64,000 bases of DNA from Eledone cirrhosa (taxonomy: Eukaryota). Shown here one piece after another: positions 4,186 through 62,263 of this stretch. The stretch is from positions 360,964,001-361,028,000 of the forward strand of contig OZ024743.1 of assembly GCA_964016885.1 (NCBI GenBank), written 5' to 3'. The notes below the pieces were generated by a model. The model was given only the letters and a program-made list of their open reading frames with translations. It was not told where the DNA came from and ran no database searches. The position numbers were made by a program, and so were the translations under genes. The stretch's first letter is position 1, and each line of letters starts with the position of its first letter.

Positions 4186-4226
<41 letters not shown>

Positions 4227-4371: not shown

Positions 4372-4384
4372 TAATATATATATT

Positions 4385-4451
<67 letters not shown>

Positions 4452-4469
4452 AGGGCGGGTAAAATTCCC

Positions 4470-4650
4470 GAGATCCATGTACGAGTTCTCTCCAGCGGTC
4501 TCTGTCCCTCATAATCGCTGCCATGTCCTGCGTCTCCAAGAGACCACTGACTGTTCTTAGGGCGTCAACATATGTTAACCTCGGTTTTCCTCTTCCAGTA
4601 TGTCCATGCAGTGCCTCCCACAGGAGCCTTGAGTGCTGTGTCAACTCCGA
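4470..4650 (-). mobile_element. RTE-clade LINE 3' fragment
   Basis: LLWEALHGHTGRGKPRLTYVDAL...MRDRDRWRELV is a typical RTE ORF C-terminus. Confidence 0.75.
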
Positions 4651-5945
4651 ATGTCGGTAAAACAAAACAAAACAAGAGAGAAAAAGAAACTTGTCCATTG
4701 TGGGTCTCTGCAAACGGAAAAGAGTCAGTCCCATATTCTGACGGCAGCAGCAGCAGCATAAGGGATGTTGGCGGGAGTAATAGTAGAGGTGCTAGTAGTG
4801 GAGAAAAGTGATGATAAAGTAAGAAATAAAAAGTTCCAGAGTTATATGTCCTTGACACTGTTTTCCAATCATTAAGAGGTTTTGTTTGACCAGGATCTTT
4901 GCTATGATCATCGTGGCATCTGGTTGTATTACAGCTAATTCTGCATTAGATCGGAAAATATTTGCTATTAAGTTAGAATGTTTTTCCTCATTAAATTTCC
5001 TGCATGCTGATTGTAGGCTTTATTGGCTTCGGGTCGATAATGAGCATGCAGGGGTTTTAATGAGAAAATACAATTTGACATAATAACAGATGTTTTGATA
5101 ATCCAACACGGAGAAAACGAGTTTTGCTAAACGACACCAATGTTTGTTCATGTCATAAAGGTATTTTATATACATACCAGGTACGCTTTTGAATTTTTTT
5201 TTATTATTAGTTTCTTTAAATATATAAATATGTGTGTTAGTGTGTGTGAATGTGTGTATGTGTGTATGTGTGTTTATATGGGTGGGGGGGTCATAGTCAT
5301 TTGATGGGCAATCTATTGCAAAATAATAATTGAAACTCTGTATAGATATTCAGTGTGACAGAGTGTGTGACAAGGTGGGTCCTTATAGATACAGTTCATC
5401 TTGTATTTTAGTGTCAGTGGATATACATTCTATAGATACTTGTGTATATATGTATTATTGGAAACAACGTCTTATATATGAGTGTACGTGTGTGTGTGTG
5501 AATGTGTGTGTGTTTGTATGGGTGTGGGTGTGGGTGGGTGTGCATGTGTATGTGTGTGTGTGCGTGTGTATGTGTATGTGTATGTGTGAGTGAGTGCGTG
5601 CGTGTGTGGGTGTTGGTTACGTGTGACAGAGTTAGACAGAGCGGGGGTGAGTGTGAGTAGGTGGGACGAAAGTGGACAGGAAAAGCAACAAAGTATTAAA
5701 CAAACTAAGAGATCAAAGATGTAAAAATGAAAAAAAACATCACAATCAAGCCAGAAGAGAATAAAAAATGTCTACCGAAAATCCAAACAAGACAAAGAAG
5801 AAATAGCTACCAAATATATGAAAACAATGAGACACACCTGCTAGAAATAGACTAAATGATATTCTGGAAGTTCATTCGCCATATTTAATCAGCAGCGAAG
5901 CAATAGATGCATTCGATTTTCCAGGAGTTTAGAATAAAAATTACA

Positions 5946-5952
5946 ATAATAA

Positions 5953-5984
<32 letters not shown>

Positions 5985-8565
5985 ATTTCTTTATTAACCA
6001 CAAGGGTTTACATAAAGTAGACATTAAGGACAGTACAGGACAATACAGGGCGGTAGAAATGGGCATTTCTGCGTGTAAAAAAACAAGAAACAGAGGACGT
6101 AATAATAGAACAATGAAAACATTCCCCAATAGGGGGGAGACTTCCGAGGGACATTCGTGGAGAAAGCCCATTAAAAAGCCACAGTGACCCTGACCACCAG
6201 GGCAAGTGCCCTCTCCCAGTTTTCCACCTTTAATTTACAGACACATACTCAGAGTAGGCCCATTCACTCGGGCCATTCTAGCCTCTCTCACCCATCTTTC
6301 AACAAAATGCTGGGAAGAGAGCACTTCCCTTTCTACCCTGATTTTCCTTTTCAAATGAAATTTGAAAAAGTCAATCAGGGCATCACCGAAGAGGTAAGTG
6401 CTCGTCTTCAGCCCTTTCAAACGTGTCCACCATACTATCTCTTTCGCCATGGCCACCAGACAGATAAACCTGTTGAAATGGAGTGGAAAAGATGGGAAAA
6501 ACCACTTACCTTACTTCTCGTAGAGGAAGGATGGTGTGTCAATCCTTTTCACTGCTTGTGGCCTCCTCCGGAAGGATGTCCTTATAAATCCTCCTGGAGA
6601 GTGTTTGTCGGAAGTCTCCGATGTCTTTGGGGAATTTTTGTTTTAGTGTCATGTACGTTTTCTGTGTGATGCGAGTGATTTGAATGTGTGGAGGTGGTGT
6701 TAACTTTTGGGTTGTTGTGTAGTCTTTTTCTGTGATGCTGGTGTTGTGTTGCATGTAGTTTAATAATTGGTGGTTGTTCAAATTTAATGCTGTGTAGTGT
6801 GTATCGTATTGGTTGTTTTGTTTTGTTTGCGTTCGTTCTGGGTTTGTTACTGTTACGCTTTTTGGTGACTTTTGTGGTGTTGGTGATGGTGGTGTTGGGG
6901 TTAATGATGGTGATGGTGTTGGTGTTTGTGGTGATGGGGTTGGTGATGCTGGTGTGGATAGTGGCATATCTGTCTTAACTTTCTTGTTCGATAATTTATT
7001 TGTTTCCCTCTGTATATTGTTTTTTGAGGGGGAGGGAAGAGAATTTTTTTCCTTTTTCGTTTCTTTTTTCTTTTTTCCTGATACCGTTTTCCACTCCTCG
7101 TCGTCACAATCTGTCTCCAGTTGCGATAAGCCGGGGAGTGGAAAATCCTCCACAGGCGTTGATTTTGGTTGTGGCGTGGTGGATGGTGTAGGCGCTGGTG
7201 CTAGTTCTGGGGCGTTGGGTGGTGGTGGTGTTGGTTTTGCTACTGTTGCTGGGGTTGTTGCTGTTACAGTTGCTTCTGTTGTTGTTGCTACAGTTGTTGC
7301 TGCTATTTCTGCTGCTGGTGGTGTTGATGGTTGAGTCACTGGGGTGGGTAAGAGAGGTGGCTTCAACCTTTTAGCCTGAGGGCAAAAAGCCCTTAGGTCG
7401 GTTCCTTCACCACAAACGACACACCTAGGTCTTCTTCCCTCGACGATTACGGTGAGGTGACTGCCGTCAGTGAGGTCTATTACCTCTGGGATCTCCTCAA
7501 TGCTTTTATGGTCCGCTTGGATCAGGAGCTCCATCCCATATCCGGACCAGTTCTCATGCTTTTCTTTTGCTATTTCTATTATTTTGGTGTTGGCTTCGAT
7601 GCGGGCGAGGACGGCAGCCATTAGCCAGGGAATTTCGATGGCCGGTGGAATGTGGGTCACGCTGTTCTTCACAAGTCTCTGGCCACAATAGCTTGGGATG
7701 AGTGTGAAGTCGTCACTTCTTAATGGGGTCATGGAGTGTTCGCTGGCTTCCTGTGATGTTTCAAAGAACACGTCCACGGTTCCATACTTCTGATGTGGTT
7801 TTTTTCCCCACACATTTCCCAAAGAGTTTTGGATTTGGGACTCGGATGCCCGTTCCACTCAGCGCGATTTTATGTTAATCGTCCGATAAGACACGGTGCA
7901 TAGGCGCCGATGCTCCATTTTATTAGGTGGGGGGAGGGACCCTGTACCCATCTTTCTTTACCATTCTCTTGGCTTCATCTAATTCCTCCTGAGTTTCCTG
8001 GATTGCTTAGCATTCTTTGGTTGCTTTGGCAAACGTCGCAGTGGTGTTGATGTATTTGTTGTTATTTTCATTGTTGCTGTTGCTGTTGTTGTTATTGTTA
8101 ATTTTGTTATTGTTATTTTTAGATTTAGTTGTGGTATTCGGTGTTGAAGAGTCGATTTTGGGTGAATCCATTTCGATGTCACGAGATAATTTATTTTTTT
8201 CTTTTGTTTCTGTTGTCGCTGTGGTGGTGGTGGTAGCGGCTTCAACACCTACTTATATTTTTAGTGTTGGCAAATGTAGTAATAGTTACAATGGTGGTGT
8301 TGGTGTGAGGTGTTAGTTTGTAAGGAAGGTTCTCAGCTGCTTGGTGTAGCTGTGAGTCGTCCATGATTTTTTCAAAGAAATTTTTGTTTGATTATTATAA
8401 AAGTTTAAAGGCTCCAATCTTTTTCAGTGTCCTTTTCCGAAAGGAAATTATGTGACCTTATAAATACTTAACAAAATGTTTTTTCCATAAATGGCAATTT
8501 GAAACAACTGAAAACAACAAACCTTTGCGGAGCTCACGATGATACGATTTCCTACGTAGGTCGCC
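5946..8565 (-). mobile_element. Tx1-clade LINE family A, internally deleted (ORF1 + 3' end), flanked by (TAA)n
   Basis: Same 5' end (GGCGACCTACGTAG) and 3' UTR as the plus-strand copies. ORF2 is deleted from its start codon position (about 6469) to the last ~75 codons. (TAA)n at 5946-5983 and 8566-8615. Confidence 0.92.
6539..7858 (-). CDS. Tx1 ORF1 (gag-like; zinc knuckle, Pro/Thr-rich linker); N-terminal part frameshifted to about 8250
   Basis: 439-aa ORF with CVVCGEGTDLRAFC (CCHC knuckle, H changed to D in this copy). Closely similar to 12388-13706. Confidence 0.8.
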   Translation of the reverse strand: MERASESQIQNSLGNVWGKKPHQKYGTVDVFFETSQEASEHSMTPLRSDDFTLIPSYCGQRLVKNSVTHIPPAIEIPWLMAAVLARIEANTKIIEIAKEKHENWSGYGMELLIQADHKSIEEIPEVIDLTDGSHLTVIVEGRRPRCVVCGEGTDLRAFCPQAKRLKPPLLPTPVTQPSTPPAAEIAATTVATTTEATVTATTPATVAKPTPPPPNAPELAPAPTPSTTPQPKSTPVEDFPLPGLSQLETDCDDEEWKTVSGKKKKETKKEKNSLPSPSKNNIQRETNKLSNKKVKTDMPLSTPASPTPSPQTPTPSPSLTPTPPSPTPQKSPKSVTVTNPERTQTKQNNQYDTHYTALNLNNHQLLNYMQHNTSITEKDYTTTQKLTPPPHIQITRITQKTYMTLKQKFPKDIGDFRQTLSRRIYKDILPEEATSSEKD

Positions 8566-8615
<50 letters not shown>

Positions 8616-8616
<1 letters not shown>

Positions 8617-9609
8617 CAGCATAGAGGACTGTGTTCAGATGGAGTAAAACAACCTACACAAATACGTGACCGATAGTAAGGAGCCAATGCTCAGAATTGT
8701 ACTGAAGGAGAGGACAATAGACCAGGGGATCTCCAAGGAGGATATAACAACGAGGAGAAAGAGCAACCTTCATGAAAAATCCTTCATATACCTTCTTTGA
8801 GACAACGGAATTCAGAGAACCACAGACATGGAACTGGTTGAGAAGAGGAGACCTTAAAAAGGCTACAGAAGGAATGCTAATGGCTGCCCAAGAGCAGGCC
8901 CTCAACATGAAGTGGCTGAAACACCATATTTACAAGGAGGAGGCTAGCCCACTGTGCAGGATCTGTGGAGAGAGAGAGGAGACTGTGGCTCACATTGTAT
9001 CGGAGTGTAAACACCTAGCCCAGACTCACTATAAAGGCTGGAGACATGATGTGATGGGCAGGGAGATCCACTGGCACCTATGCAAAGTAAACAATTTACC
9101 ACAATCTGAGAAGTGGTATGAGCATCAGCCAGAGTCGGAGATAGAAAAAGATCAGGTGAAGGTGCTATGGGATTTCAGGATACAGACGGACAAGAAACTG
9201 GAACACAATAGAACACAATAGACCTTACCTGGTGGTTTTGGACAAGGAAAAAAGATCGGGCCTGATTGTGGATGTGGCCTGTCCATTCGACACGAGAGTG
9301 CAAGAGAAGGAGAGGGAAAAAATTAACCGATACCAGGACTTAAAGTGGGAGGTAAAAAGGATTTGGAACTGCCATGAAGTCAAAGTGGTCCCGATTGTCA
9401 TAGGCGCACTATGTACTATCTCAAAAAGTTTCCGGGATGGTTAAAGAAAATTGGCCCCGCCCCGCTTTTTGGAACACTTCAAAAGGCATGCTTGCTGGGA
9501 ACAGCAAGAACTCTCCGATACGTCCTGAATATCTGAGGCTGCAGGTAGTGGCTTGATATTCATTTCAACACACTTTCCAGTTAACTAACATCAATGACTG
9601 AGATTCAAA

Positions 9610-9645
<36 letters not shown>
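8616..9645 (+). mobile_element. R4/Dong-clade RLE LINE, 5'-truncated, (TAA)n tail
   Basis: AAQEQAL, CRICGEREETVAHIVSEC (CCHC), RHD, LWDF.IQTD, PDL..., DVACPFD, K..RYQDL are restriction-like endonuclease motifs. Ends in (AAT)n 9611-9645. Confidence 0.92.

Positions 9646-9688
<43 letters not shown>
9611..9688. repeat. (AAT)n(ATT)n self-complementary microsatellite
   Basis: Polarity switches at about 9646. Confidence 0.95.
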
Positions 9689-9689
<1 letters not shown>

Positions 9690-9694
9690 CTTTT

Positions 9695-11413
9695 GCTCTG
9701 TGGTGAGAGTGAACAGTCACCTTTAGGAACCGTTCAACTTCATGCGCTAAGTCCGCCAAGGTTGTCCCGTTTCGTCCCTCTTCTACGTATTGACACTCGA
9801 GCAATTACTGCATATGAGGACGATGTCACCGTAGTGGTGCCGAACACCAAACATATCCAGGCGATCGGCACTACACTAGGAGAATACGAAGCGGTGGCAG
9901 GAGCCATCAACCAGGAAAAGTCAGTGGGATTGCAGCTCGGCACATGGAGAGGCAGGTCCATGCCGTCCAACAGCGTCGTCGGGCACTGGACGGACGGACC
10001 GGTTAAATTGCTAGACTCCCAGACGGACAAAAACTGGGACGAGGTGACGAGCAGGGTGGATTCTCTCACCCAGAAATGGGCGGAGAGGAAGTTATCCCTG
10101 AAAGGTCGAGTGGAGGTGGCTAACGCGTACATCGCGTCCGTCATCTACTACCGCCTGACCGTCGTACGTTGTCCTAGGCCCCGCCTGACTGCGATAGAGC
10201 GTCAGCTCTTTCGCTTTTCGTGGAAGGGACGCGCTCCGATGGCCAGGCGGTCCATCTGCTGTCAACACCCTCTACCTGGAGGGCTGGGCATGCCGTGGCT
10301 GATGATGCGCAGACACGCGCCCAGGCTACGACATCTCCACGTCTTCTTCGACGGCGATCATGTGTGGTCGCCGTTTGCTAGACGCGTCTTTCCCCAGCTT
10401 GTCTCCTTGACGGAGCTGCAGTTCTGGGTCAAGCGAAGACCGAGAGGGAGCGCTTGGAGACTGGAATGTCTTCAGGCGCTAACAGCCCTCGACCAATCGG
10501 GCAATGTGATCGGTGGAAGCTCCACCTTGGCGTTCTATAAGGGATTAGTGGAGGGTAAGAGCGACGACGTACTTGGGAAAACTCTAGGCGTCGACGAAAA
10601 TCAACTAGCCAATCTCTCCGGAAGAACTTTCGGGCCGGGGCCTATGGACAACTTCCAGAAATCCCTGGCTTGGATGTGCTACCGAGGAGCTTTGCCAGTT
10701 CGGGATAAACTCTATAGGCATGGAGGTGCCGTCAGCCGGGCATGTCCGAGATGCGCGCAGGGCGACTAAACCGTCCTACATGCACTCATCCAGTGTCCGA
10801 GCATTGCTGACTTGTGGGTTTATGTCGAACACCTGCTGTCGCGTGTAAGACGGATCCAGCTATCAGCTGAGTCCATCGTGAGGATTGCCGCGCCCTCTTA
10901 CTTTAGCCCGGAAGGGCAGGCAGTTTTTATCTGTCTGGTGGCCATGGCGAAAGAGATAGTATGGTGGACACGTTTGAAAGGGCTGAAGACGAGCACTTAC
11001 CTCTTCGGTGATGCCCTGATTAACTTTTTCAAATTTCATTTGAAAAGGAAAATCAGAGTAAAGAGGGAAATGCTCTCTTCCCAGCATGTTGTTGAAAGAT
11101 GGTTAGAGAAGCAAGTATGGCCCGAGTGAATGGGCCAACTCTGAGGATGTGTCTGTAAATTAAAGGTGTAAAACTGGGAGAGGGCACTTTCCCTGGTGGT
11201 CAGGGTCACTGTGGCTTTTAATGAGATTTCTCAACGAATGTCCCTCGGAAGTCTCCCCCCTATTGGGGAATTTTTTCATTGTTCTATAATTACATCCTCC
11301 GTTATTTTGTTTTTTTACACGCAGAAAGGCCCTTTTGTACCGTCCTGTATTGTCATGTACTGTCCTTAATGTTTACTTTATGTAAACCCTTGTGGTTAAT
11401 AAAGAAAGCATTA
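9695..11413 (+). mobile_element. Tx1-clade LINE family A, 5'-truncated ORF2 + 3' UTR
   Basis: Matches 17160-18923, with YEDD (degenerate YADD), LSLKGR, GGLG and a CPRC..ET..H....C zinc finger; stops and frameshifts present. Confidence 0.92.
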
Positions 11414-11419
11414 TATGAT

Positions 11420-11600
11420 GGTGGATTGGCAGTATCGGTAGAGGGTCGGACGCCATGCTTTCCAGCATAGTTATGTCCCTTTACGATCTGAGTTCAAATG
11501 CAGCCGAGGCTGACTTTGCCTTTCATCCTTACGGGGTCGATAAAATAAAGTCCCAGTAATGCACTGGATAATTGCTGGCTTTGTGTCTAACGTAGAAACA

Positions 11601-11633
<33 letters not shown>
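11420..11633 (+). mobile_element. tRNA-headed SINE with (TTA)n tail, inserted in a Tx1 tail
   Basis: A box TGGCAGTATCGG, B box GAGTTCAAAT, central domain resembling the Meta-SINE core, (TTA)n 11602-11633. Confidence 0.9.
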
Positions 11634-14630
11634 GGCGACCTACGTAGTAAATCGTATCATCGTGAGCTCCGCAAAGGTTTGTTATTTCCGTTTGTTAAAA
11701 ATTGCCATTTATGGAAAATTTTTATTGTTAACCATATATAAGCGCACATACATTGTTTTCCGAAAAGGACACCCAAAAAGATTGGGGCCTTGTGCCCAAA
11801 ATTTAAACTTTTATTATTATCAAAAAATTTCTTTGAAAAAAAATGGCTAATTAACCTCTGCACCAAGCAGCTGAAAGCCTTCCTCACAAATTATCACCTC
11901 ACACCGACACCACCATTGTAAATGTTACTACGTTTGCCAACACTACAAAAAATATAAGCAGTAGCAATATTTTAAATTTGTCTCAGGCAGACATTCATTT
12001 CCCGCCATTACCAATGACTGCAGGTGTTAAAGCCTCCACCACCACCACCACCGCGACAACCACCACCCCCACCGCCACCGCGACAACAGAAACAAAAGAA
12101 GAAAAAAATAAATTAACTCATGATGTCGAAATGAAATCAAGAAACATGGACTCTTCCCCACCAAAGACGACTGACGTCACCACCACCAAAACTGAAACTA
12201 AAATTAATATTAACACAAATAACGATAGCAACAACAACAATGACATTATAAAAACGACCGTTAGTTTTGCCAGAGTAGCAAAACAGTTCGAAGCATTTAC
12301 GGTAACTCAGGAGGATTTAGAAAATGCCAAACAAATGGTAAAGAAAGATGGGTACAGGGTCAGCCCCCCCCCCACCCACCTAATAAAATGGAGCATCGGC
12401 GCCTATGCACCGTGTCGTATCGAGCAATAAATGTAAAATCGCGCCGAGTGGAACAGGCATCCGAGTCCCAAATCCAAAAAGCTTTCGGACATGTGTGGGC
12501 AAGAAAAACCCACATCAGACGTGGGCAGAAGTATGGAACCGTGGACGTGTTCTTTGAAACACCAGAGGAGGCTAGAGAACACTCCATGGCCCCATTAAGA
12601 AGTGATGACTTCACACTCGTCCCAAGCTATTGTGGCCAGAGACTCGTAAAGATCAGGGTGACCCACGTTCCACCGGCCATCGAAATTCCCTGGTTAATAG
12701 CGGCCGTCCTCGCCGGCATCGAAGTCAACACAAAAATAATAGCAATAAGAAAAGTAAAGCAGGAAAACTGGTCCGGATCTGGGATGGAGCTCCCGATCCA
12801 AGCGGACCAGAAAAGCATTGAGGAGATCCTAGAGGTAATAGACCTCACTGACGGCAGCCACCTCACGGTAATTGTCGAGGGCAGAAGACCTAGGTGTGTC
12901 GTTTGTGGTGAAGGAACCCACCTAAGGGCTTTCTGTCCTCAGGCTAAAAGGTTGAGGCCACCTCTCCTACCCACCCCAGTGACACAACCATCAACACCAC
13001 CAGTAGCAGAAATGGCAGCAACAACTGTAGCAGCAACAACAGAAGCAACTATAACAGCAACAAGCCCAGCAACAGTAGCAAAACCAACACCACCACCACC
13101 ACCAGCAAAACAAACACCACAACCATCCAACACTTCAGAACTAGCACCAGCGCCTACACCATCCACCACGCCACAAGCAAAACTAACGCCTGTGGAGGAT
13201 TTTCCACTCCCCGGCCTATCACAACTGGAGACAGATTGTGACGACGAGGAGTGGGAAACGATATCCGGAAAAAAAAAAGAAACCAAAAAAGAAAAAATTC
13301 TCTTCCTTCCCCCTCCAAAAACAAAATACAGAGGGAAACAAATAAATTAAGAAACCAAAAAGTTAGGACAGATATGCCACCATCCACACCAGCATCACCA
13401 ACCCCATCAACCCAAACACCAACACCATCACCATCATTAACCCCAACACCACCATCACCTACACCACAAAAGTCACCAAAATGCGAAACAGAAACAAACC
13501 CACAACAAACGCAAACAAAACTAAACAACCAAAACGATACACACTACACAGCATTAAATTTGAACAACAAGCAATTATTACACTACATCCAACACAACAC
13601 CAGCATCACAGAAAAAGACTACACAACAACCCCAACATTCACAAGACCTCCACACATACAAATCACTCGCATCACACAGAAAACGTACATGACACTAAAA
13701 AAATAATTCCCCAAAGACATCGGAGACTTCCGACAAGCACTCTCCAGGAGGATTTATAAGGACATCCTTCCTGAGGAGGCCACAAGCAGTGAAAAGGATG
13801 GAAAAACCGTCCTTCCCCTACGAGAAGTAAGGTAAGTGGTCTTTCCCATCTTTTCCACTCCTTTTCAACATGACCTCACTCAGAATAGGCAGCATAAATG
13901 CGCGTGGCTTGGGGTCGTCATGGAAGCAGGGCCACCTACTCAACGACCTCAGGTCACTAAACATAGATGTAGTGGCGATCAGCGAGACCAGAATCTCCGA
14001 AGCACAGGCTTTCGCACCGATCTTCGGCGGCTACGATGTGTGCGCATCTCCCAGCCGTCCGGGATCGGGGGGAGGAGTTGCTGTGCTTTTTCGGAGAGGT
14101 TTGGATCTTGCCATACGGGCCATCTTCCTGGACCCAGAAGGTAAGTTGGTGGTGCTGGACGTGACCAGCGGAGACGGGCAAGCTTTCAGGTTAGTGGCCG
14201 TCTATGTCCCAACAGGAGCAGGGCGGCCTGATTTCTTCCGGCGTCTGGAGACCTTTCTTGGAACGTCCCGCTCTTTAGTGTTAGTGGGCGACTAGAACGG
14301 GATCTTAGATGCACGCTGGGATTGTGTGGGATTAGTGGATAGGGAAGGAGGGTGCAAGAGTCTCACCAACCTTCTCAGGCGTTTTGAACTGTCTGACAGG
14401 TACCGAATGGATTTCTGTGGTCTTTTAATGGGCTTTCTCCACAAATGTCCCTCGGAAGTCTCCCCCCTATTGGGGAATTTTTCTTTGTTATTTTATTTCA
14501 TCCTCTGTTTTTTTTTACACGCAGAAATGCCCATTTGTACCGTCCTGTATTGTCCTGTACTGTCCTTAATGTCTACTTTATGTAAACCCTTGTGGTTAAT
14601 AAAGAAAACATTATTATTATTATTATTATT
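11634..14630 (+). mobile_element. Tx1-clade LINE family A: intact 5' end, frameshifted ORF1, APE start, internal deletion to 3' UTR
   Basis: Starts GGCGACC right after (ATT)n. ORF1 pieces at 11978-13835 include CVVCGEGTHLRAFC. ORF2 starts at 13870 (MTSLRIGSINARGL..ISET..VYVP..LVGD, APE endonuclease). Jumps at 14415 to the 3' UTR; (TTA)n tail 14611-14630. Confidence 0.92.
12388..13706 (+). pseudogene. Tx1 ORF1, frameshifted at the A-run near 13270
   Basis: ORFs 12388-13350 and 13251-13706 together match the 439-aa ORF at 6539-7858. Confidence 0.8.
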
Positions 14631-15531
14631 GTTCTTTGAGTCTCAGTCATTGATGTTAGTTAACTGGAAAGTTTGTTGAAATGAATATCAAGCCACTACC
14701 TGCAGCCTCAGATATTCAGGACGTATCGGAGGGTTATTGCTGTTCCCAGCAAGCATGCCTTTTGAAGCGTTCCAAAAAGCGTGGCGGTGCCAATTTTTTT
14801 TAATCATCCTTGGAAACTTTTTGAGATAGTACCTAGTGCGCCTATGACAATTGGGACTACTTTGACTTCATGGCAGTTCCAAATCCTTTTTACCTCCCAC
14901 TTTAAGTCCTGGTATCGGTTAATTTTCTCCCTCTCCTTCTCTTGCACTCTCGTGTCGAATGGGCAAGCCACATCCACAATCAAGCACGATCTTTTTCCTT
15001 GTCCAAAACCACCAGGTCAGGTCTATTGTGTTCCAGTTGCTTGTCCGTCTGTATCCTAACATCCCACAGCACCTTCACCTTGTCGTTTTCTATCACCGAC
15101 TCTGGCATATGCGCACACCATTTCTCAGAATGTGGTAAATTGTTTACTTTGCATAGGTGCCAGTGGATCACCCTGCCCATCACATCATGTCTCCAGCCCT
15201 TATAGAGAGTCTGGTCTAGGTGTTTACACTCGGATACAATGTGAGCCACAGTCTCCTCTCTCTCTCCACAGATCCTGCACAGTGGGCTAGCCTCCTCCTT
15301 GTAAATATGGTGTTTCAACCACTTCGTTTTGAAGGCCTGCTCTTGCGCAGCCATTAACATTCCTTCTGTAGTCTTTTTAAGGTCTCCTCTTTTCAACCTG
15401 TTCCATGTCTGTGGATCTCTAAATTCAGTTTTCTCAAAGAAGGTACTATGAAGGGATTTTTCATGAAGGCTGCTCTTTCTCCTTGTTGTTATTTCCTCCT
15501 TGGACATCCCCTGTTCTATTGTCCTCTCCTT
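14631..15531 (-). mobile_element. R4/Dong-clade RLE LINE, 5'-truncated
   Basis: Reverse complement of about 8705-9610. CRICGEREETVAHIVSEC, RHD, RPDL. Shares the (TTA)n tract at 14611-14630 as its tail. Confidence 0.92.
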
Positions 15532-18500
15532 GCCATACGGGCCATCTTCCTGGACCCAGAAGGTAAGTTGGTGGTGCTGGGCGTGACCAGCGGAGAAGGG
15601 CAAGCTTTCAGGTTAGTGGCCGTCTATGCCCCGACAGGTGCAGGGCGGCCTGATTTCTTCCGGCGTCTGGAGACCTTTATGGAACGTCCCGCTCTTTAGA
15701 GTTAGTGGGCGACTGGAACGGGATCTTAGATGCACGCTGGGATTGTGTGGGATTAGTGGATAGGGAAGGAGGGTGCAAGAGTCTCACCACCCTGCTCAGG
15801 CGTGTTGAACTGTCTGACGGGTACCGAATGGATTTCCCGAATGTACCAATGTGGACTTGGACAAATCGCATAGGATCATCCAGATCATATCTAGATAGAG
15901 TATTTTGTAGGGAAATAGATAGGTCTAGCATAGGCTGTCCACAATTCAAGATAGTCAGCTACACGGACCACAAATTCGTGATCTGTGTGCTTGACTTAGA
16001 TAGGCTTCATAGACGAGGACACGGCCACTGGAAGCTAAACGCATCCTTACCAGCGCGCAAGGCCTACAGAGACCGGATTAGCGAACTAGTTAAGCGGGCG
16101 TTGACGGGGGCCATCGTCAACAACAAGTGGTGGTTTGCTCTGAAAAGAGCAATTAGAATAGAGTCCATTAGGTTTAGTAAGGCTTTAGCAATAGAGAAAA
16201 ATAGAGCAGAGGGAGAATTAGTTAGAAAATTAGACGAGGCGCTTAGCAAAGGCATCGCGACAGACGTACTTGCGGCGAAATTGGCCCTTGACCAATTCTT
16301 CAATGCAAAGCACGAAGTCTGCGTTGTTAGAGCTAGGTTTCGTGCTCTCAGACACGAGGGGACGAAAGCCGTTCAATGGGTCCGAGTGGCGTAGACGCGT
16401 CGTGGCAATAAAGCCACGATCCGGTCTTTGGTGGACCACGACGGGCGCATACTACTCGATCCCGGGCAAATGTGTGATGCTTTTCAGCGACACTTCGCTA
16501 AAACTGTTCGGGGGCAGTGGCGGGCCGAGGGATGGACTTTAGTGTCTACCTCGACGGACTGCCGCTGCTTTCGGCCACTGAGGCGGAGTGTTGCGAAAAG
16601 CCGATAACAACCGCTGAAGTACGGGAGGCAATGACTGGCTGCACAAGGGGTAAATCGTCTGGTTTAGATGGTCTGCCCTATGAACTTTACGTACAAATGC
16701 CAGACTTGTTCGGAGGCCTCTTGACGGACGTCTACTGCAACTGGCAACAGAACGGGAGAATTCCCAGCCTCTGTGAGCCGAGGAGCGGTGGCGCTGCTGA
16801 GAAAGGATCCGAACAAGTGCGATAACATAGATAATTTTAGGCCCAAAACTCTGCTAAACACAGAGTTCAAGATTTTGGCCAAGGTGCTAGCAAAGAGGTT
16901 GGCGCTTGCCGTTGGTGGTCTGGTGGGAGAGGCACAGACATGCGCCATTCCCGACAGATCCATCCACGACAACCTCCACCTCATGCGATACATCGTAGAG
17001 AGGGTAGCTAGGGAACCTGGCACGGGTGGGTCTTTGATCAATTTAGATCAGTCGAAAGCCTTCGATAGGGTCGACCATCGTTACCTAGCGGCAGTCCTGA
17101 GGGCGGCTGGCTTTGGGCCCATCTTCAGAGGCTGGATCGTTGCCATGCACAGCGACATCTGCTCTGTAGTGAGAGTGAACGGTCACCTTTCGGAACCGTT
17201 CAACATCATGCGCTCGGTCCGCCAAGGATGTCCACTCTCGTCCCTATTGTACGTATTGACTCTCGAGCCATTACTGCACAAACTGGAGACGTTGAGCGGG
17301 GTCCCGCGCGAACTAGGATGCGGAAGATCCGCGTCACCATATGCCGACGATGTCACCGTAGTGGTGTCGAACGCCAAACACATCGAGGCGATCGGCACTA
17401 CACTAAGTGAATACGAAGCGGTGACAGGAGCAATGATCAACCAGGAAAAGTCAGTGGGCCTGCAGCACGGCACCTGGAGAGGCAGGTCCATGCCGTCCAA
17501 CAGCGTCGTCGGGCGCTGAACGGACGGACCGGTTAAATTGCTAGGGGTCTGGTTCGGTCCAGACCTCCAGACGGACAAAAACTGGGACGAGGTGACGAGC
17601 AGGGTGGCTTCTCTCACCCAGAAATGGGCCGAGAGGAACCTATCCCTGAAAGGTCGAGCGGTGGTGGCTAACGCGTGCATCGCGTCCGTCATCTACTACC
17701 GCCTGACCGTCATACCTTGTACTAAGCCCCGCCTGACGGTGGAAGGGACGCGCTCCGATGGTCAGGCGGTCCATCTGCTGTCAACACCCGCTACGTGGAG
17801 GGCTGGGCGTGCCGTGGCTGATGATGCGCAAACACGCGCTCAGGCTACGACATCTCCACCTCTTCCTCGACGGTGATCAGGTGTGGTCGCCGTTTGCAAG
17901 ACACCTTTTTCCCCAGCTCGTCTCCTTGACGGAGCTGCAGTCCTGGGTCAAGCGAAGACCGAGAGGGAGCGCTTGGAGACTGGAATGTCTTCAGGCGCTC
18001 ACAGCCCTCGACCAATCGGGCAATGTGATCGGTGGAAACTCCACCTTGGCGTTCTATAGGGGATTAGTGGAGGGGAAGAGCGACGACGTACTTGGAGAAA
18101 CTCTAGGCGTCGACGAAAATCAACTAGCCAATCTCTTCGGAAGGACTTTCGGGCCGGGGCCTATGGACAACTTCCAGAAATCCCTGGCCTGGCAGTGCTA
18201 CCGAGGAGCTTTGCCAGTTCGGGATAAACTCTACAGGCATGGAGGTGCAGTCAGCCGGGCATGTCCGAGATGCGCGCAGGGCGACGAAACCGTCCTGCAC
18301 GCACTCGTCCAGTGTCCGAGCATTGCTGACTTGTGGGTTTATGTCGAACACCTGCTGTCCCGTGTAGGACGGATCCAGCTATCAGCTGAGTCCATCGTGA
18401 GGATTGCCCCGCCCCCTTCCTTTAGCCTGGAAGGGCAGGCAGTTTTTATCTGTCTGGTGGCCATGGCGAAAGAAATAGTATGGTGGACACGTTTGAAAGG

Positions 18501-18925
18501 GCTGAAGACGAGCACTTACCTCTTCGGCGATGCCCTGATTAACTTTTTCAAATTTCATTTGAAAAGGAAAATCAGGGTAGAGAGGGAAGTGCTCTCTTCC
18601 CAGCATTTTGTTGAAAGATGGGTGAGAGAAGCAAGTATGGCCCGAATGAATGGGCCTTCTCTGAGTATGTGTCTGTAAATTAAAGGTGGAAAACTGGGAG
18701 AAGGCACTTGCCCTGGTGGTCAGGGCCACTGTGGTCTTTTAATGGGCTTTCTCCACAAATGTCCCTTGGAAGTCTCCCCCCTATTGGGGAATTTTTCTTT
18801 GTTATTTTATTTCAACCTCTGTTTTTTTACACGCAGAAATCCCCATTTGTACCGTCCTGTATTGTCCTGTACTGTCCTTAATGTCTACTTTATGTGAACC
18901 CTTGTGGTTAATAAAGAAAACATTA

Positions 18926-18983
<58 letters not shown>
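15529..18983 (+). mobile_element. Tx1-clade LINE family A, 5'-truncated, near-complete ORF2 pseudogene (APE-RT-zinc finger), (ATT)n tail
   Basis: GDWN, YLDR, TDH, WKLN (APE); GLDG, FRP..LLN, LDQSKAFDRVDH, RQGCPLS, YADD (RT); CPRC..H..C. Several stops and frameshifts. Confidence 0.95.
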
Positions 18984-42649: not shown

Positions 42650-42689
42650 TCAAAAACCTCGCAAAACTAATTCATCGCCGTTATATATA

Positions 42690-44115: not shown

Positions 44116-44202
<87 letters not shown>
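44021..44202. repeat. (TTC)n(TTA)n compound microsatellite
   Basis: Seen directly; source of the poly-S/L/K/N ORFs. Confidence 0.95.
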
Positions 44203-44204
<2 letters not shown>

Positions 44205-44361
44205 AGTTGCATTTATCTTGCTTTATGTTCATACGAGTTATCACCAAGTCACAACCAGTGACCTCAAGAGACAACAAGGTCCGCCATGTTCAAGAAAGAA
44301 CATACATATTCACACATGCATCTTTAGTGTTTAGACTTGTGATGTACTTATATTGACAGAA

Positions 44362-46600
44362 TCTTCTTCTTCTTCTTCTTCTTCTTCTTCTTCTTCTTCT
44401 TCTTCTTCTTCTTCTTCTTCTTCTTCTTCTTCTACTTCTTAATCCTGAGAGGGTCATAGGGGCGGAGTTCTCAAACTCTTTTTTCCAGCGGGTCCATTTA
44501 GAGGCAACTCTTTCCCACTGATCCCTCTGGATCCCCAAGCGAACTCATGGTTTTTATTCAACCATCGTACTCGAGGTTTACACCTGGGTCACCCACCGGT
44601 AGGTTTCGCCTGTAAAATCTGTCCAGCATTATTTTCCTGAGACATTATAACCATAAGTACATAGTATCGGAGTTGTGATCTCTCAATTCGCAGAAATAGT
44701 GTCTCTATTTGGAGCGACTCACTGACCTCCGAGCTACGTAATCTATCGAGTAACGTTATTCCAAACACCCTCCCGAGGAAACCCATTTTGGACGCCTATA
44801 TTCGTGATAGCATTCTTTGAACATTGCACAAGATTCATGTTCATATGAAACAGTTGGCATGAATACCGAATTGAAGATAGCGAGTATGGGTTTCGTTATT
44901 ATTACCGAATGCTGAAACAGGCGCATTACTACAGTGGCTCTTGCAATTCTCCATCCCTCATGAAAACGGCCCCGAGAGACTGAACGTCTACGCGTGCTGG
45001 ATTGAAACTCCATTCACATCTCGTAGGTTTCCACGTTTCCCTGCACTGATTGTCATTCCAGCTATGCAGCACTCAGCACCAACCTATCAAGTACAAGTCT
45101 GACGTAACCCTCTGTCGAATTAAGTAATACTTAATGACACCAGCAAATTCCAGCCGACTGACTCTACACCTTCCAGATGTCACACCATTCCCAACCCGGT
45201 TGCGCATGATAATCCTATTCATGAAAATGAACATGAAAGGAGACGGTATGCACCCTTCACGCAGTCCGACTCTGACATAGAATGGTTTTGATTTACTACA
45301 ATTGGAGCAAACTTTCTTGTTTCAGTTTTTGAAATTTGGGATCACTGCCGATTGCCATTGCATACTTGATTTTCCAGACATCCAGGCCACACGGCACACA
45401 CGAGTCAGTTAGAGAATACCCTCTCTATTTAAGGCTTTTAACATCTCTGGACAAATGTCATCCTTCTCAGTAACCTTGCCACATTTGAGTGCTTTAATTG
45501 CTCGTGAATACAGCCTCCAAGAGACTAGTCATCGTTCACAGATGCACCATGTATACATCAGAAACTGTTGTTGTAATCGGGTGTAGGAGGTCAGCAGAGT
45601 ATTATTTTCACCTCCCGAGAATGCACCTTCCTCAGGTGAGGAGAGTCCCATACGCTTTGGAGGTAGCAGGTGTGGAGGAGGAAAGTCGGGGATGGTCTGC
45701 CAGAACATTTTATTTGCTGATCTGATGTCAGATTTTAGCTTAACCTCCAAGTCTTTGTATTTACTATCTCCGCAAGTGTAAGAAGGGTGACTTATTTCCA
45801 AGCTATGTTTTGTAGGCCTTTACTTTGCTTGGATGGCATCTTTGACCACTTGATTGAACCAAGGGGTCTTATGACATCTGGCGCCACACCAAGACTCTTT
45901 TGCCCACAGCAGAACCGGCTGACCTGAATAATCACCACTTCGTTTCGACGTCCTCAATTTGCTAAGTGATTTCTATGGATTTAGATGCAGTAGTATCTGC
46001 ATGAATAGCTCTGGCTTGCTCATCCACCAACGCCTTTCACGTCATTCTGTAGGTTAACCTAGGTCTGCCAGGAAGAAAATATTCATAATGGAAAGTCCAT
46101 TGCTAAAGCCGATATCTAATAAGGGATCTCCATGTCAGGTCCCTTCCATGTCAGGTCATCAGTGCCAATATGTTCATTGATGACTCTATAGGATATAGGA
46201 CACAGTATTACTTACATTTAGCGCTGCAGTGACTTCATAAAGGAAGTATCTATATTCAGACTGCTTGTTTGGTGCATAAACTTGCACCACCCACAGAGAC
46301 CTATCTTTTAGCCTAAGGTTCAAAAGGCAAATCCACCCTTCTAATGGTATCAAGTGCGAAATACATTCTGACAGCCAGAGCTTATGAGTATCTTCACTCT
46401 CGTCTGCGTATTTACTTCTGGCGCCCCACCTGAATAGTGGATTTACTATCCGCCATCCAAAGACACTGAACTTTGTTGTGGAAACCCCGACTGTAACCAA
46501 CCGGTAGCATCTAGCCTCTACCGCACATTTTTGTTCTTCTTACCTGCAACGAATTTGATGTTCCAGGTACCAATTGTCAAGATTTGCTCCCCTTCCAACC
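44362..46600 (-). mobile_element. Highly decayed RTE-clade LINE with (GAA)n tail
   Basis: LTIGTWNI (about 46560-46585), VVQVYAPN (APE), WFNQVVKDAI, MFWQTI, MGFLGRVFGITLLDRLRS..IERSQLRY (RTE C-terminus). Tail is (TTC)n on the plus strand, 44362-44440. Confidence 0.75.
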
Positions 46601-46609
46601 TTCTTTGAT

Positions 46610-48670
46610 ATCCAAAGATGGTTCCTCTAATGATTTAGTTTTTCGCCTCCCGTAGATTTACCAAAATCGATAGTTTGTAATCGATAATCAATTACTTAGA
46701 ATAAGTTTTGCCTTGGTACCATGAGGAAAATAAGAAACTTTTCCACCTTGAAGTATGTACTTTTTCCTCAATATTAAGTGCTTTATACCTATATACAAAA
46801 TACTATGTGTTTCTCAAACGATATATCGCTTTTTATCTCTCTATCATATAAACATATATCTTTTAATTTGAATTATTGATGCTCTAGACCAGGGATCGGC
46901 AACCTTTTGGAGAGAGTGGGCCAAACAGCTATGCAGTGTCATGGAGGAGGGCAATGTTATTAAATATGTAAATAAATTTTCTGGAGGTTTAAAGCAAAAC
47001 AAGGAATTTAATATAATTTTATTTTAACAAGAAATAACAGAAAAACAACTACTATCACAATCAACAGAAAAAAAGCAAATTCCTTGCTACAAACGAAATA
47101 CAGTTAGAAATGGTAAATGATTTAATGAGACACTCGTTTCTGCTTATTGTGCGATAACTTCTCCACATCAGGTGAAATATTTGTAGATGACAGGAGCAAA
47201 ACGTCATCCATGTGGTCGTCACGCAACCTTGTTCTTAAATGACTTTTAGTATATTTCATTTTGGAAAAAAGTTGTTCTCAAGCATATATACTTCCAAATA
47301 ATGATATCATCAGTTTCGTATTAGTCAAGATGTTTTTATATTTTCCGCTTGGCAATATATATTTCTTGTAGAAGTCATCAGTGGATTCGAACTGAAATTT
47401 CGATTTCAAAGATTCGTCGCACTGTAAGTCAATTAACTCCAACTGATATTCTTCTTAAAAGTTCGGCACTCCAAATCGACCTTTCTTTTCTTAGCTTCCA
47501 TGGGCTTATTTTTGTTCAAACAAAACAGATTTATGGAAAGGAAAAAGGACAAAAAGTATAATAATCAGAATGAAGAAATAAGAAACAATGAAAACAAATG
47601 TAAATGCAAATACAGTAATGCGATAAAATATGATAATTGGGAATAAATTATATAAAACCAGGTTTCTAACGACGTTGTTAGATCAGGGTTGCCATTTGTT
47701 TTTTTAAACCACTTTTGGCCCAATTCTAATAATAATAATTCACACAATTTATCACAAATAATTAAATAAACGTTATTATCGAATAAAGATACACACTGTA
47801 TAGTTGTTATACCACCAGATAACAAACTCAAATGAAAATACTCTGGGGAGGAGGGAACGAAGTAATTTTTCCAAGGACAGCTTGACCTTGTGTCGTGGTC
47901 ACAGGTAAGGTCAGGCAAACGAAGACGACAATAATTCACGAGTGATTTTACTGAATGACAATATGGGTTTAAAAGCGAGTCATGCGAACCGTAAGGTAGT
48001 ATACCTTCCAGTCGCTGACGAAAATGCATACTTCCAGCCAACATTTGTGTTTGTTGAGTGGAACAAAAACACATACATGAAATCACAGGAAATAATAATA
48101 CAGGTGATATAATGCTTGGCGGAAAGCCCCCAAAAAGATGGATAACAGCGTTTCTACAGAGAAGCATAATCATCATGCATATTATATATATTATGATACC
48201 TGAAATTAGTATATAACTGCTCTAAATTCATAATTGTTGAGTTGCTTATACTGTGACTAGTACTTCGCATCTCTTTCTAGCTAATGTGGCGTCCAGTCCT
48301 ATTTATATCTGCCGCCACAGTTAAAACGTTCGCACAAGATACTTTTTATGCTTTTGGCTAACTCTCGGATCCCGACAGATATAACAGTATTTTGTGATGT
48401 ATTGGAACTTATCCAATGGTGATTCCTCTGATGATTACTTTTGCGTCTCACGTGCCGTTAACAAAACTGATAGTTTGTAATCGATAATCGATTCCTTAGA
48501 ACCATTTTAGCTTTGGTTTACTAACTTTGAACTTTTAACATAAGTAAAACAAGAAAATTTCCACCTTAAAGTATGTAATTTTTCTTAAATATTATGTGGT
48601 TTATAGATATGTGAGATATACCATGAGTTTCTTGAACGATATATGACTTTTCTCACTAAATATACATATA
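46610..48670. repeat. ~250-bp diverged direct repeat pair (46610-46860 and 48410-48670)
   Basis: Shared blocks GATAGTTTGTAATCGATAATC, TTTCCACCTT.AAGTATGTA and AACGATATAT occur in the same order. Confidence 0.75.
46890..47430 (-). mobile_element. hAT Charlie/SPIN-like transposon end with transposase C-terminus
   Basis: TIR-like CAGGGATCGGCAACC preceded by the Charlie-type target CTCTAGAC. Minus strand reads SLFGSIYA*EQLFSKMKYTKSHLRTRLRDDH...PDVEKL....QKRVSH (hAT dimerisation region). Confidence 0.85.
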
Positions 48671-54656: not shown

Positions 54657-54716
<60 letters not shown>

Positions 54717-60530: not shown

Positions 60531-60568
<38 letters not shown>

Positions 60569-62263
60569 CCTTGGGAGGCGTGCAGATCAAGAGAGGTATC
60601 TTCCAGGGAGATAGTATGTTCCCTCTGTTGTTTCTTCTTGCCCTCATAACTCTGACAATTATACTGCGAAAAGTGAGATCAGGATACAAGTTGGGAAAGG
60701 GAGAGCTTACCATCAATCACCTCCTCTTCATGGACGATCTTAAGCTCTTCGGGAAGAGTGAAAAGGAGTTCGATGTGCTTGTTGACACTGTCCGCATTTT
60801 CAGCAATGATATATGTATGCAATTTGGTATTAGTAAGTGTGGAGTCCTTGTGATGAATAGGGGTACATTGAGCAGAAACAACGGAATCCAGGTACCAACA
60901 GGTGAGATATTAAAGGATATTGACACTGAAGAAGGATAAAATATTTAGGTGTTCTGGAGGCAGATGGAACTAAGAACAAAGAAATGAAGGAATTGATAAG
61001 ATCTGAGTAAATTCGGAGAGTAAGGAGCGTATTAAAATCACATCTGAACAGTAGGAATGCCATAAGTGCAGTAAATTCCCGAGCTGTGTCTATTATTAGG
61101 TACAGTGCGGCAATTCTGAAATGGAATGTTGCTGAACAAAAAGAAATGGATAGGAAGACTAGGAAGCTATTGACTATCTACAACATGTTCCACAAGAGGA
61201 GTGATGTCGATAGACTCTACTTAAGGAGATCTGAAGGTGGAAGAGGTCTTATCAGCATAGAGGACTGTGTTCAGATGGAGAAAAGCAACCTACACAAATA
61301 CGTGACTGATAGCAGGGAGCCAATGATCAGAATTGTACTGAAGGAGAGGACAATAGACCAGGGTATGTCCAAGGAGGAAAGAAAAACAAGGAGGAAGAGC
61401 AACCTTCAGGAAAAATCCCTTCATAGTACCTTCTTTGAGAAAACTGAATTCAGAGATCCACAGACATGGAACTGGTTGAAAAGAGGAGACCTTAAAAAGG
61501 CTTCAGAAGGAATGCTAATGGCTGCGCAAGAGCAGGCCCTCAAAACCAAGTGGTTGAAACACCATATTTACAAGGAGGAGGCTAGCGCACTGTGTAGGAT
61601 CTGTGGAGAGAGAGAGGAGACTGTGGCTCACATTGTATCCGAGTGTAAACACCTAGCCCAAACTCACTATAAGGGCTGGAGACATGATGTGATGGAGAGG
61701 GTGTTCCACTGGCACCTATACAAAGTAAACAATTTTCCACATTCTGAGAAGTGGTATGAGCATAAGCCAGAGTCGGAGATAGAAAACGATCAGGTGAAGG
61801 TGCTGTGGGATTTTAGGATACAGACGGACAAGAAACTGGAACACAATAGACATGACCTGGTGGTTTTGGACAAGGAAAACAGATCGTGTCTGACAGTAGA
61901 TGTAGCCTGCCCATTCGACACGAGAGTACAAGAGATGGAAAGGGAGAAAATTAACCGATACCAGGACTTAAAGTGGGAGGTAAAAAGGATCTGGAACTGC
62001 CATGAAATCAAAGTGGTCCCGATTGTCATAGATGCACTAGGTACTATCTCAAAGTGTTTCCAAGGATGGTTAAAGAAAATTAGTCCAGCCCCACTTTTTG
62101 GAACACTTCAAAAGGCATGCTTGCTGGGAATAGCGAGATCCCTCCGATACGTCCTGTATATATGAGGCTGCAGGTAGTGGCTTGATATTCATTTCAACAA
62201 ACTTTCCAGTTAAATAACATCAATGACTGAGGCTCAAAGAACAATAATAATAGTAATAATAAT
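60569..62263 (+). mobile_element. R4/Dong-clade LINE, 5'-truncated (RT C-terminus, CCHC, RLE)
   Basis: RGIFQGDS, HLLFMDDLKL, RLYL.R.EGGRGL, CRIC..ET..HI.SEC, RHD, DVACP. (TAA)n on both sides. Confidence 0.95.
61086..62165 (+). CDS. Dong/R4 ORF C-terminal 359 aa (thumb-CCHC-RLE), part of a truncated pseudogene
   Basis: Open frame with the motifs above; the PD of the RLE motif reads HD in this copy. Confidence 0.7.
   Translation: MSIIRYSAAILKWNVAEQKEMDRKTRKLLTIYNMFHKRSDVDRLYLRRSEGGRGLISIEDCVQMEKSNLHKYVTDSREPMIRIVLKERTIDQGMSKEERKTRRKSNLQEKSLHSTFFEKTEFRDPQTWNWLKRGDLKKASEGMLMAAQEQALKTKWLKHHIYKEEASALCRICGEREETVAHIVSECKHLAQTHYKGWRHDVMERVFHWHLYKVNNFPHSEKWYEHKPESEIENDQVKVLWDFRIQTDKKLEHNRHDLVVLDKENRSCLTVDVACPFDTRVQEMEREKINRYQDLKWEVKRIWNCHEIKVVPIVIDALGTISKCFQGWLKKISPAPLFGTLQKACLLGIARSLRYVLYI

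What the first reader, a model, noticed from the sequence alone, without database searches (positions are those of the whole stretch)
5946..18983. Two LINE clades share one microsatellite with opposite strand polarity: Tx1 in (TTA)n, Dong/R4 in (TAA)n
Seen: all three intact Tx1 5' ends (8565, 11634, 60530) abut (ATT)n in the element's sense and all six Tx1 3' ends run into it. All three Dong 3' ends, and two truncated 5' ends, abut (TAA)n. Neighbours sharing a tract are therefore head-to-head (8566-8615, 60531-60568) or tail-to-tail (14611-14630, 62243-62263). Established: Dong targets TAA repeats, and Tx1-clade Kibi/Koshi target TC/TTC repeats. Inference: these are (TTA)n-specific Tx1 families, which I do not recall being described. 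Each clade's tail regenerates the other's target, building self-feeding nests of more than 10 kb.
Basis: partly seen in the sequence, partly recalled or inferred. Interest (0 to 1): 0.75.

Follow-up and report, generated by a model that had tools for sequence, protein, structure and literature searches.

The report
Two LINEs split one ATT microsatellite
In this genome, likely an octopus's, a young group of Tx1-like jumping genes sits in ATT/AAT repeats facing one way while unrelated Dong-like elements face the other way, likely because their enzymes cut opposite strands and each landing duplicates about 20 bases of repeat; repeat-seeking is a known habit of such elements, but I found this target described only for Dong.

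Summary
Observation confirmed with small corrections. Genome-wide, 1366 of 1460 exact heads of the window's main Tx1-like family follow (ATT)3 in fixed phase and 0 follow (AAT)3; a SINE control scores 3 of 30, background 0.25%. Across 146 regions, 57 of 58 tract-separated Dong/Tx junctions are antiparallel. At least five related Tx families share the target. The 'tails regenerate targets' step needs revising: for Tx the added repeat looks like a hidden 18-24 nt target-site duplication at the tract's left edge; my tail model failed its test. New here: in 7 of 10 tandem pairs the two copies are identical for the first 1.7-5.9 kb, against 3 of 465 random pairs, likely because incoming cDNA finishes on the resident neighbour. 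TRAS/SART, Kibi/Koshi and Dong are precedents. Tx1-clade membership was not tested by phylogeny. This scan already reported the same system at eight other places in this genome. Verdict: new variant of a known kind.

The parts
5945..5983 (.). (AAT)n tract, (ATT)n in the sense of TxA copy 1
5984..8565 (-). TxA copy 1 (older subfamily): intact head, ORF1 remnant 6542-7858, internal deletion of nearly all ORF2 at about 6470, 3' UTR
   Evidence: reference positions 1-2238 then 5424-5898, 80-94% identity
8566..8616 (.). (AAT)17 tract, head-to-head Tx/Dong junction
8615..9610 (+). Dong-like copy 1, 5'-truncated (last 1.0 of 4.3 kb: zinc finger and restriction-like endonuclease region, 3' UTR)
   Evidence: 94% to L116; zf-RVT weak
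9611..9688 (.). compound tract (AAT)12(ATT)14; polarity flips inside the tract
9689..11414 (+). TxA copy 2, 5'-truncated inside RT; only ATTAT after its 3' end
11418..11601 (+). about 185-nt SINE, same polarity as Tx; last 25 nt resemble the Tx 3' end
11602..11633 (.). (TTA)10 tract before an intact Tx head
11634..14609 (+). TxA copy 3: intact head, ORF1, start of the endonuclease, internal deletion at 14415 (reference 2783 to 5708), 3' UTR
   Evidence: 97%; Exo_endo_phos E 5e-8
14610..14630 (.). (ATT)7 tract, tail-to-tail Tx/Dong junction
14631..15531 (-). Dong-like copy 2, 5'-truncated; fused to TxA copy 4 over a 3-nt overlap with no tract
15529..18921 (+). TxA copy 4, ORF2 from mid-endonuclease to the end, with stops and frameshifts
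   Evidence: 97%; RVT_1 E 1e-26, zf-RVT E 2e-8
18922..18983 (.). (ATT)20 tract closing the nest
44144..46620 (-). RTE-like LINE remnant (label recalled from its endonuclease start motif, not tested) ending in (TAA)20 then (GAA)42; Dong polarity; its tails are Tx targets elsewhere
   Evidence: 8 RTE-tail/Tx-tail junctions
54657..54714 (.). (TAA)19 tract at the TxB 3' end
54715..60530 (-). TxB, full length, 5.8 kb, frames broken; ORF2 pieces of TxB about 74% identical to TxA/TxC ORF2
60531..60568 (.). (ATA)12 tract, head-to-head junction
60566..62239 (+). Dong-like copy 3, 5'-truncated
   Evidence: 93%
62240..62265 (.). imperfect (AAT)n tract, tail-to-tail junction
62266..62947 (-). 3' piece of a further Tx family (TxD, 74% to TxA)
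62945..64000 (-). Dong-like copy 4, 3'-truncated, fused in parallel to the TxD piece; runs off the window

Best explanation
At least five related L1/Tx1-group LINE families and a Dong-like LINE occupy the same ATT/AAT microsatellite in opposite orientations, likely because the Tx endonuclease nicks the (AAT)n strand and the Dong restriction-like endonuclease likely nicks the (ATT)n strand. Shown: the target, the fixed phase, the polarity, the junction geometry. Inferred steps for Tx: (1) first nick at 5'-ATAAT/G or ATAAT/A on the AAT strand, usually at the first ATT unit of a tract; (2) second nick 18-24 nt further, so that 6-8 units are duplicated and the whole old tract ends up behind the element; (3) most families end in ...ATC, so element end plus repeat rebuilds the preferred site ATC|ATTATT; (4) each insertion thus turns one site into two, usable by either clade; (5) when the nick lies just ahead of a resident copy of the same family, the cDNA often joins that resident by homology, giving a hybrid upstream copy and a duplicated leader; (6) later deletions trim copies and give tract-free fusions such as 15529-15531.
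For: 1366 of 1460 exact TxA heads follow (ATT)3, 0 follow (AAT)3 within 4 nt. Strict local test: TxA 30/30, TxB 25/30 (4 of 5 misses are degenerate tracts), Dong 5' ends 13/20 AAT and 0 ATT, SINE control 3/30, background 0.25%; TxC 32/32; TxE-type 14 of 14 heads found in 20 loci. Tract-separated junctions: Dong/Tx 57 of 58 antiparallel, Tx/Tx 25 of 25 and Dong/Dong 14 of 14 tandem. No duplication outside the tract in 55 whole copies apart from two 6-mers, so Tx uses existing tracts. 5' tract at least 17 nt in 56 of 57 TxA/TxC heads; 19-24 nt in 11 of 20 youngest copies, 3' tract median 56. SINE with a Tx-like 3' end: 32 non-repeat duplications of 10-19 nt among 92 full copies, starting ATTAT, C at -1 in 19 of 32 against 21% background. 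Empty against filled sites in repeat Y: 42 and 39 nt empty, 24+45 filled; 50, 41, 44 empty, 22+57 and 22+66 outer tracts of filled dimers. Hybrids: 7 of 10 pairs identical over 1.6 kb or more at the 5' end against 3 of 465; 64 shared rare variants before the first difference, 1 after; in L348/L349 the downstream copy keeps the rare subfamily (74 against 11 minority alleles).
Against: No nicking was assayed; strand assignment is inferred from target-primed reverse transcription. A duplication in pure repeat cannot be told from a carried 5' (AUU)n leader. The cut site is borrowed from a SINE whose driver is unproven, and the SINE is far less repeat-bound than Tx (3/30). Truncated Tx copies abut the tract much less often (10 of 46 fragment starts, a count that includes internal deletions and the TxC variant) and with shorter tracts. 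Nearly half of the youngest copies have 5' tracts over 24 nt. Three of 10 tandem pairs lack a long identical block, and the pairs were picked from a list ranked by endonuclease identity. Only 5 of 30 Y loci and 3 filled sites entered the empty/filled comparison. Seven of 20 Dong 5' ends lack the tract. Samples of 30 are the best-scoring, hence young, copies.
Confidence: 0.78

Rival explanations
1. The element carries its own repeats: transcripts start about 20 nt upstream in the donor's (ATT)n and read into the downstream tract, so leader and tail are delivered and pair with a loosely chosen ATTAT site; polarity comes from RNA-DNA pairing more than from the endonuclease.
For: Sharp 17-19 nt floor at full-length heads, shorter tracts at truncated copies, 18 of 20 tail-anchored copies reach a head, the SINE needs only ATTAT. 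Upstream target sequence in the transcript is described for R2 (PMC3774820 passages) and annealing of repeat-like RNA for SART1 (PMC7265360 passages).
Against: Tx never showed a non-repeat duplication and I saw no whole Tx copy between matching halves of a library element, whereas the SINE splits TxA in L043; filled Y sites keep a whole empty-length tract on the 3' side; tail-to-head junctions are often only 18-21 nt, too short for tail plus leader.
Confidence: 0.15
2. One reading: each clade's own 3' tail lays down new repeat that the other clade needs, so the two depend on each other.
For: Dong-tail/Tx-tail tracts are longest (median 55 nt, n=23); many Dong tails begin with an inherited AAC variant; 34 head-to-head and 23 tail-to-tail junctions show constant sharing.
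Against: Tx/Tx tandems need no Dong (25 junctions). In duplicated leaders non-repeat bases follow GAAATC within 5-11 nt (L333, L317, L323), so no long Tx tail was added there. The prediction of a 21-nt tail (upstream 5' tract of 24 nt or less for 39-45 nt junctions) failed in 6 of 7 pairs.
Confidence: 0.1
3. No targeting: copies accumulate passively in fragile or tolerated AT-rich repeats and nests grow by DNA-level duplication.
For: One array has four identical junctions (L263-L266), consistent with unequal crossing-over; deletions are frequent (4/20 TxA, 8/20 TxB).
Against: Single-base phase in 93.6% of 1460 heads and no reversed case; near-identical young copies with open frames show the same; tandem partners differ in their 3' parts.
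Confidence: 0.02

Closest known systems
Kibi (TC)n and Koshi (TTC)n; crocodilian Tx1 families in (TTCC)n/(TTTC)n (PMC4494074, passages and section 15; PMC3812793 passage)
   Same: APE-type L1-group LINEs inserted in a microsatellite
   Different: Target is (ATT)n; invertebrate host; shared with an RLE-type element. Whether this lineage branches with Kibi/Koshi was not tested.
Dong, DongAg, DongBg, R4 clade, TAA repeats (PMC3812793 passage; PMC3774820 passages); octopus Dong-R4 (PMC13282606 first third and passages, PMC8967140 and PMC9115989 passages)
   Same: Single 1173-aa frame with RT and C-terminal CCHC/restriction-like motifs, (AAT)n at both ends
   Different: Nothing essential; here it shares tracts with Tx. 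The octopus passages read list the family without a target analysis.
TRAS1 and SART1 of Bombyx telomeres (PMC7265360 and PMC10088271 passages)
   Same: Two LINEs enter one short repeat in opposite directions and form arrays; endonuclease sets the target
   Different: Both are R1-clade APE elements at telomeres; here the partners use different endonuclease classes and dispersed microsatellites.
SINEU / Tx1-Mar (PMC4494074 passages)
   Same: SINE likely moved by a Tx1-type LINE; tandem copies sandwiching one target duplication
   Different: Target there is a Mariner; the SINE here is much less site-bound than its supposed driver.
Templated or chimeric L1 insertions (bioRxiv 10.1101/2024.08.27.596794 passage; chimeras with resident L1 in cultured cells are recalled, paper not held)
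   Same: cDNA leaves the RNA and pairs with nearby homologous DNA, duplicating it
   Different: There rare and mostly under 250 bp; here 1.7-5.9 kb and seen in 7 of 10 tandem pairs.

Membership tests
L1/Tx1 group LINE | ORF2 with APE endonuclease, RT and C-terminal zinc finger | tested here: met
   Pfam PF03372, PF00078, PF13966 on L167; best PDB hit human L1 ORF2p E 3e-50 against R2 6e-21, catalytic E, D, D, H aligned
Tx1 clade | ORF1 with RNA-binding domains and CCHC knuckle (feature recalled) | tested here: inconclusive
   One CX2CX4HX4C in the sequence; no Pfam hit above cut-off; ESM features nearest CCHC clusters 0.93 and a ZCCHC3-RBD cluster 0.90
Tx1 clade | RT phylogeny grouping with Xenopus Tx1, Kibi, Koshi rather than L1 | not testable with these tools
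   No named Tx1 reference came back; nearest named RT is Argonauta hians 73%, then turtles about 41%
Tx1 clade | Target-specific insertion | tested here: met
Canonical L1 | Poly(A) tail | tested here: not met
   3' ends run into (ATT)n in 29 of 30 strict, 30 of 30 by eye; no poly(A) seen
Dong / R4 clade | Single ORF, RT, C-terminal CCHC and PD-(D/E)xK-like endonuclease, no APE | tested here: met
   L116 frame of 1173 aa (motifs read by eye, recalled); Pfam RVT_1 and no APE; best PDB hits R2
Dong / R4 clade | Insertion in TAA repeats | tested here: met
   3' ends 29/30 strict, 5' ends 13/20 AAT and 0 ATT
Dong / R4 clade | 5' HDV-like ribozyme | tested here: inconclusive
   Rfam scan of one head gave nothing near a gathering score
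Dong / R4 clade | RT phylogeny with Bombyx Dong and Ascaris R4 | not testable with these tools
   No hit named Dong or R4 among the 120 listed
TRAS/SART system | R1-clade elements in telomeric (TTAGG)n | tested here: not met
   Target is (ATT)n at interior sites on many contigs; works like it, is not a member

The most novel reading that the evidence does not exclude
An active Tx1-group lineage has converged on Dong's microsatellite from the other strand, rebuilds its own best cut site at every 3' end, and routinely completes new copies by copying the 5' part of the resident neighbour. This would keep copies full length, shuffle ORF1 and ORF2 between families (TxA and TxC share ORF2 but not ORF1) and make insertion-driven repeat growth a main source of ATT microsatellite and multi-kilobase stacks in octopod genomes.
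Probability: 0.45. Interest if true: 0.7.

Novelty: new variant of a known kind. Interest (0 to 1): 0.5.

Why it matters
It adds a target to the Tx1 group's list and gives a case of two endonuclease classes meeting on one repeat from opposite strands. With at least 150 near-identical copies, most with open ORF2 frames, the endonuclease and a marked donor can be assayed directly, which makes the open question of how APE-type elements pick microsatellites testable. Neighbour-templated 5' completion, if general, would explain full-length stacks and mosaic families, and it warns that tandem copies are not independent for dating. The ingredients are each precedented, so a specialist would find it neat rather than shocking.

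Tried and rejected
Co-integration of Tx and Dong to explain tract-free head-to-head fusions: rejected; 5' fusions (2/20) are matched by 3'-truncated fusions (3/40) and internal deletions are more frequent in the older family (4/20 against 8/20). A 21-nt own tail for Tx: failed its prediction. Reading target duplications from imperfect tracts in TxB: uninformative, copies too old. Search for a GATA-targeting sister through the divergent fragment at 23476-24025 returned another ATT family; the sister was not found or tested. RTE 3' end search returned nothing, so RTE targeting is untested. No RNA holder listed; no reads were laid. No tRNA call for the SINE and no Rfam match. No tree was built, for lack of named references; no structure was predicted. 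Literature searches found no ATT-targeting Tx1; Repbase, Kojima and Fujiwara 2004, Xiong and Eickbush 1993 and the figure and supplements of PMC4494074 could not be read and may list such a family.

Full report
Setting. The window is G000:C4:360964001-361028000 in a 3.0-Gb genome. The nearest named relative of the Tx RT is from Argonauta hians at 73%, so the host is likely an octopod (inference). Self-comparison and annotation against a small library cut from this genome resolve 5946-18983 into four pieces of one Tx family (TxA), two 5'-truncated Dong-like pieces and one SINE, separated by ATT/AAT tracts. A second nest at 54657-64000 holds a full-length TxB, two Dong pieces and a piece of TxD. 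None of these copies has intact frames.

The observation. Corrections: the Tx end at 11414 has only ATTAT before a SINE; two Dong/Tx joints have no tract (15529-15531, 62945-62947); at 9611-9688 the tract itself flips from (AAT)12 to (ATT)14 between parallel elements.

What the elements are. Near-intact copies elsewhere show TxA to be 5.9 kb with ORF1 (one CCHC knuckle) and an ORF2 of about 1140 aa with APE, RT and zinc finger, closest in the PDB to human L1 ORF2p. TxC has the TxA ORF2 behind another 5' UTR and ORF1; a search with its endonuclease listed 150 places at 99-100% identity, the cap of the list, most in frames of 1195-1204 aa. TxB and TxE ORF2 pieces are 65-74% identical to it; TxD is seen by its 3' end. 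The Dong-like element is 4.3 kb with one 1173-aa frame, no APE and R2 as best PDB hits. Clade names rest on anatomy: three homolog searches and a cluster look-up gave no named Tx1 or Dong.

Targeting is real. Of 1460 exact TxA heads in the genome, 1366 follow (ATT)3 in one phase and 0 follow (AAT)3 within 4 nt. In the 30 best-scoring loci per query (one each is the window's own; L026/L027 and L062/L063 look like segmental duplicates) a strict test gave TxA heads 30/30, TxB heads 25/30, TxA tails 29/30, Dong tails 29/30; Dong 5' ends in 20 of those loci 13/20 AAT and 0 ATT; the SINE 3/30; random positions 0.24-0.27%. TxC heads were 32/32 and the 14 heads found in 20 TxE-type loci 14/14. After merging loci L001-L230 and the window into 146 regions (957 kb), tract-separated Dong/Tx junctions were 34 head-to-head, 23 tail-to-tail and 1 parallel; Tx/Tx 25/25 and Dong/Dong 14/14 were tandem; SINE sides with Tx and the RTE-like element with Dong. 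These regions are anchored on the elements, so they measure geometry, not genome-wide frequency.

How repeat is regenerated. In 55 whole Tx copies no duplication reached outside the tract except two 6-mers. The tract before the head was 17 nt or more in 56 of 57 TxA/TxC heads, the miss being an interrupted long tract; older TxB fell below 17 in 8 of 30. In the youngest copies it was 19-24 nt in 11 of 20, while the tract behind was 17-96 nt, median 56. The SINE, whose last 25 nt resemble the Tx end, has no tail of its own: of 92 full copies 50 had a duplication of 10 nt or more starting at its end, 32 of them non-repeat, 10-19 nt long, beginning ATTAT, with C before in 19 of 32 against 21% background. 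If the SINE reports the Tx enzyme (inferred; the same reading stands in earlier scan notes), the first nick falls at ATAAT/G or /A on the AAT strand, and the family ends in ...ATC rebuild that site. A short repeat Y (3554 exact matches) gives a few empty sites: 5 of 30 loci had comparable flanks, 39-50 nt empty, against 24+45 for one single insertion and 22+57, 22+66 for the outer tracts of two dimers. So insertion adds about 20-30 nt and sits at the left edge. A model with an added 21-nt Tx tail, prompted by junction peaks at 21 and 42 nt, failed in 6 of 7 pairs. For Dong, longer tail-side tracts hint at a tail, untested.

Tandem copies are hybrids. In five arrays the junction repeats the upstream leader from an ATTA or GTTA start, non-repeat bases included (L333; L298/L258; L302/L268/L317; L308/L274/L323; L295/L263-266). 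Heads of neighbours were identical over 280 nt in 12 of 15 comparisons against 22 of 465 random pairs. Ten pairs aligned whole: first differences at 26, 287, 564, 1690, 1899, 2074, 2305, 3246, 5144 and 5853; 7 of 10 beyond 1.6 kb against 3 of 465. Rare shared variants lie before the first difference (64 against 1). In L348/L349 and L342/L343 the downstream copy continues the rare type and the upstream copy turns common. The simplest reading is a cDNA primed ahead of a resident copy that anneals to it. A related, shorter event is described for human L1 (passage). A words search of earlier scan notes found nothing on this. DNA duplication followed by conversion is not excluded.

Comparison. Dong in TAA, Kibi in TC, Koshi in TTC, crocodilian Tx1 in TTCC/TTTC, telomeric Tx1-1_ACar and the opposite orientation of TRAS1 and SART1 are in print; I read passages or single sections only. 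Octopus papers list L1-Tx1 and Dong-R4 with no target analysis in the parts read. PMC3747384, PMC4640811 and PMC4758252 (passages) added no ATT-targeting Tx1. The scan has noted this system at eight other places in this genome; those notes are not independent evidence.

Verdict. Real, strong and well beyond chance; a new variant of microsatellite-targeting LINEs, with the tail step replaced by target duplication and a likely neighbour-templated route to tandem stacks. Interest 0.5.

Noticed in passing
L167, L172, L180; L276-L294: TxC shares ORF2 (97%) with TxA but has a different 5' UTR and ORF1: a 5' module swap. It is very young, with at least 150 near-identical copies.
   Followed up: partly
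window 9611-9688; L007, L089, L095, L101, L129: Palindromic (AAT)n(ATT)n tracts recur, mostly at Dong tails; origin unexplained.
   Followed up: no
window 44021-44440; L017, L018, L022, L285, L289: (TTC)n/(GAA)n runs often adjoin the ATT tract, next to Dong heads (which begin GGGAAGAAG) and RTE-like tails.
   Followed up: no
L356-L385; L311, L313, L324: Short repeat Y (3554 exact 40-nt matches) has a low-complexity arm with an internal ATT tract that Tx uses; some loci look like short inverted structures.
   Followed up: partly
G000:C2:188050000-188081000 (L263-L266, L295, L309): Five TxC copies in tandem at 6084-6085 bp spacing with identical junctions; likely later unequal crossing-over.
   Followed up: partly
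window 41300-42650 (-): Penelope-like RT remnant (YVDD motif; label recalled, no Pfam hit), cut by a SINE and (TA)n.
   Followed up: no
window 23476-24025 (-): Old internal Tx fragment, 76% to TxB, ending at (AT)58; best relatives are an ATT-targeting family at 83-84%.
   Followed up: yes
L031, L038, L043 against L044, L037: TxA ORF1 ends at about 504 aa or runs to about 666 aa depending on the length of an A run; assembly error or frameshift site not resolved.
   Followed up: no
L030, L072, L173, L276: Another element's 3' end runs into (ATT)n and hosts Tx heads; not classified.
   Followed up: no
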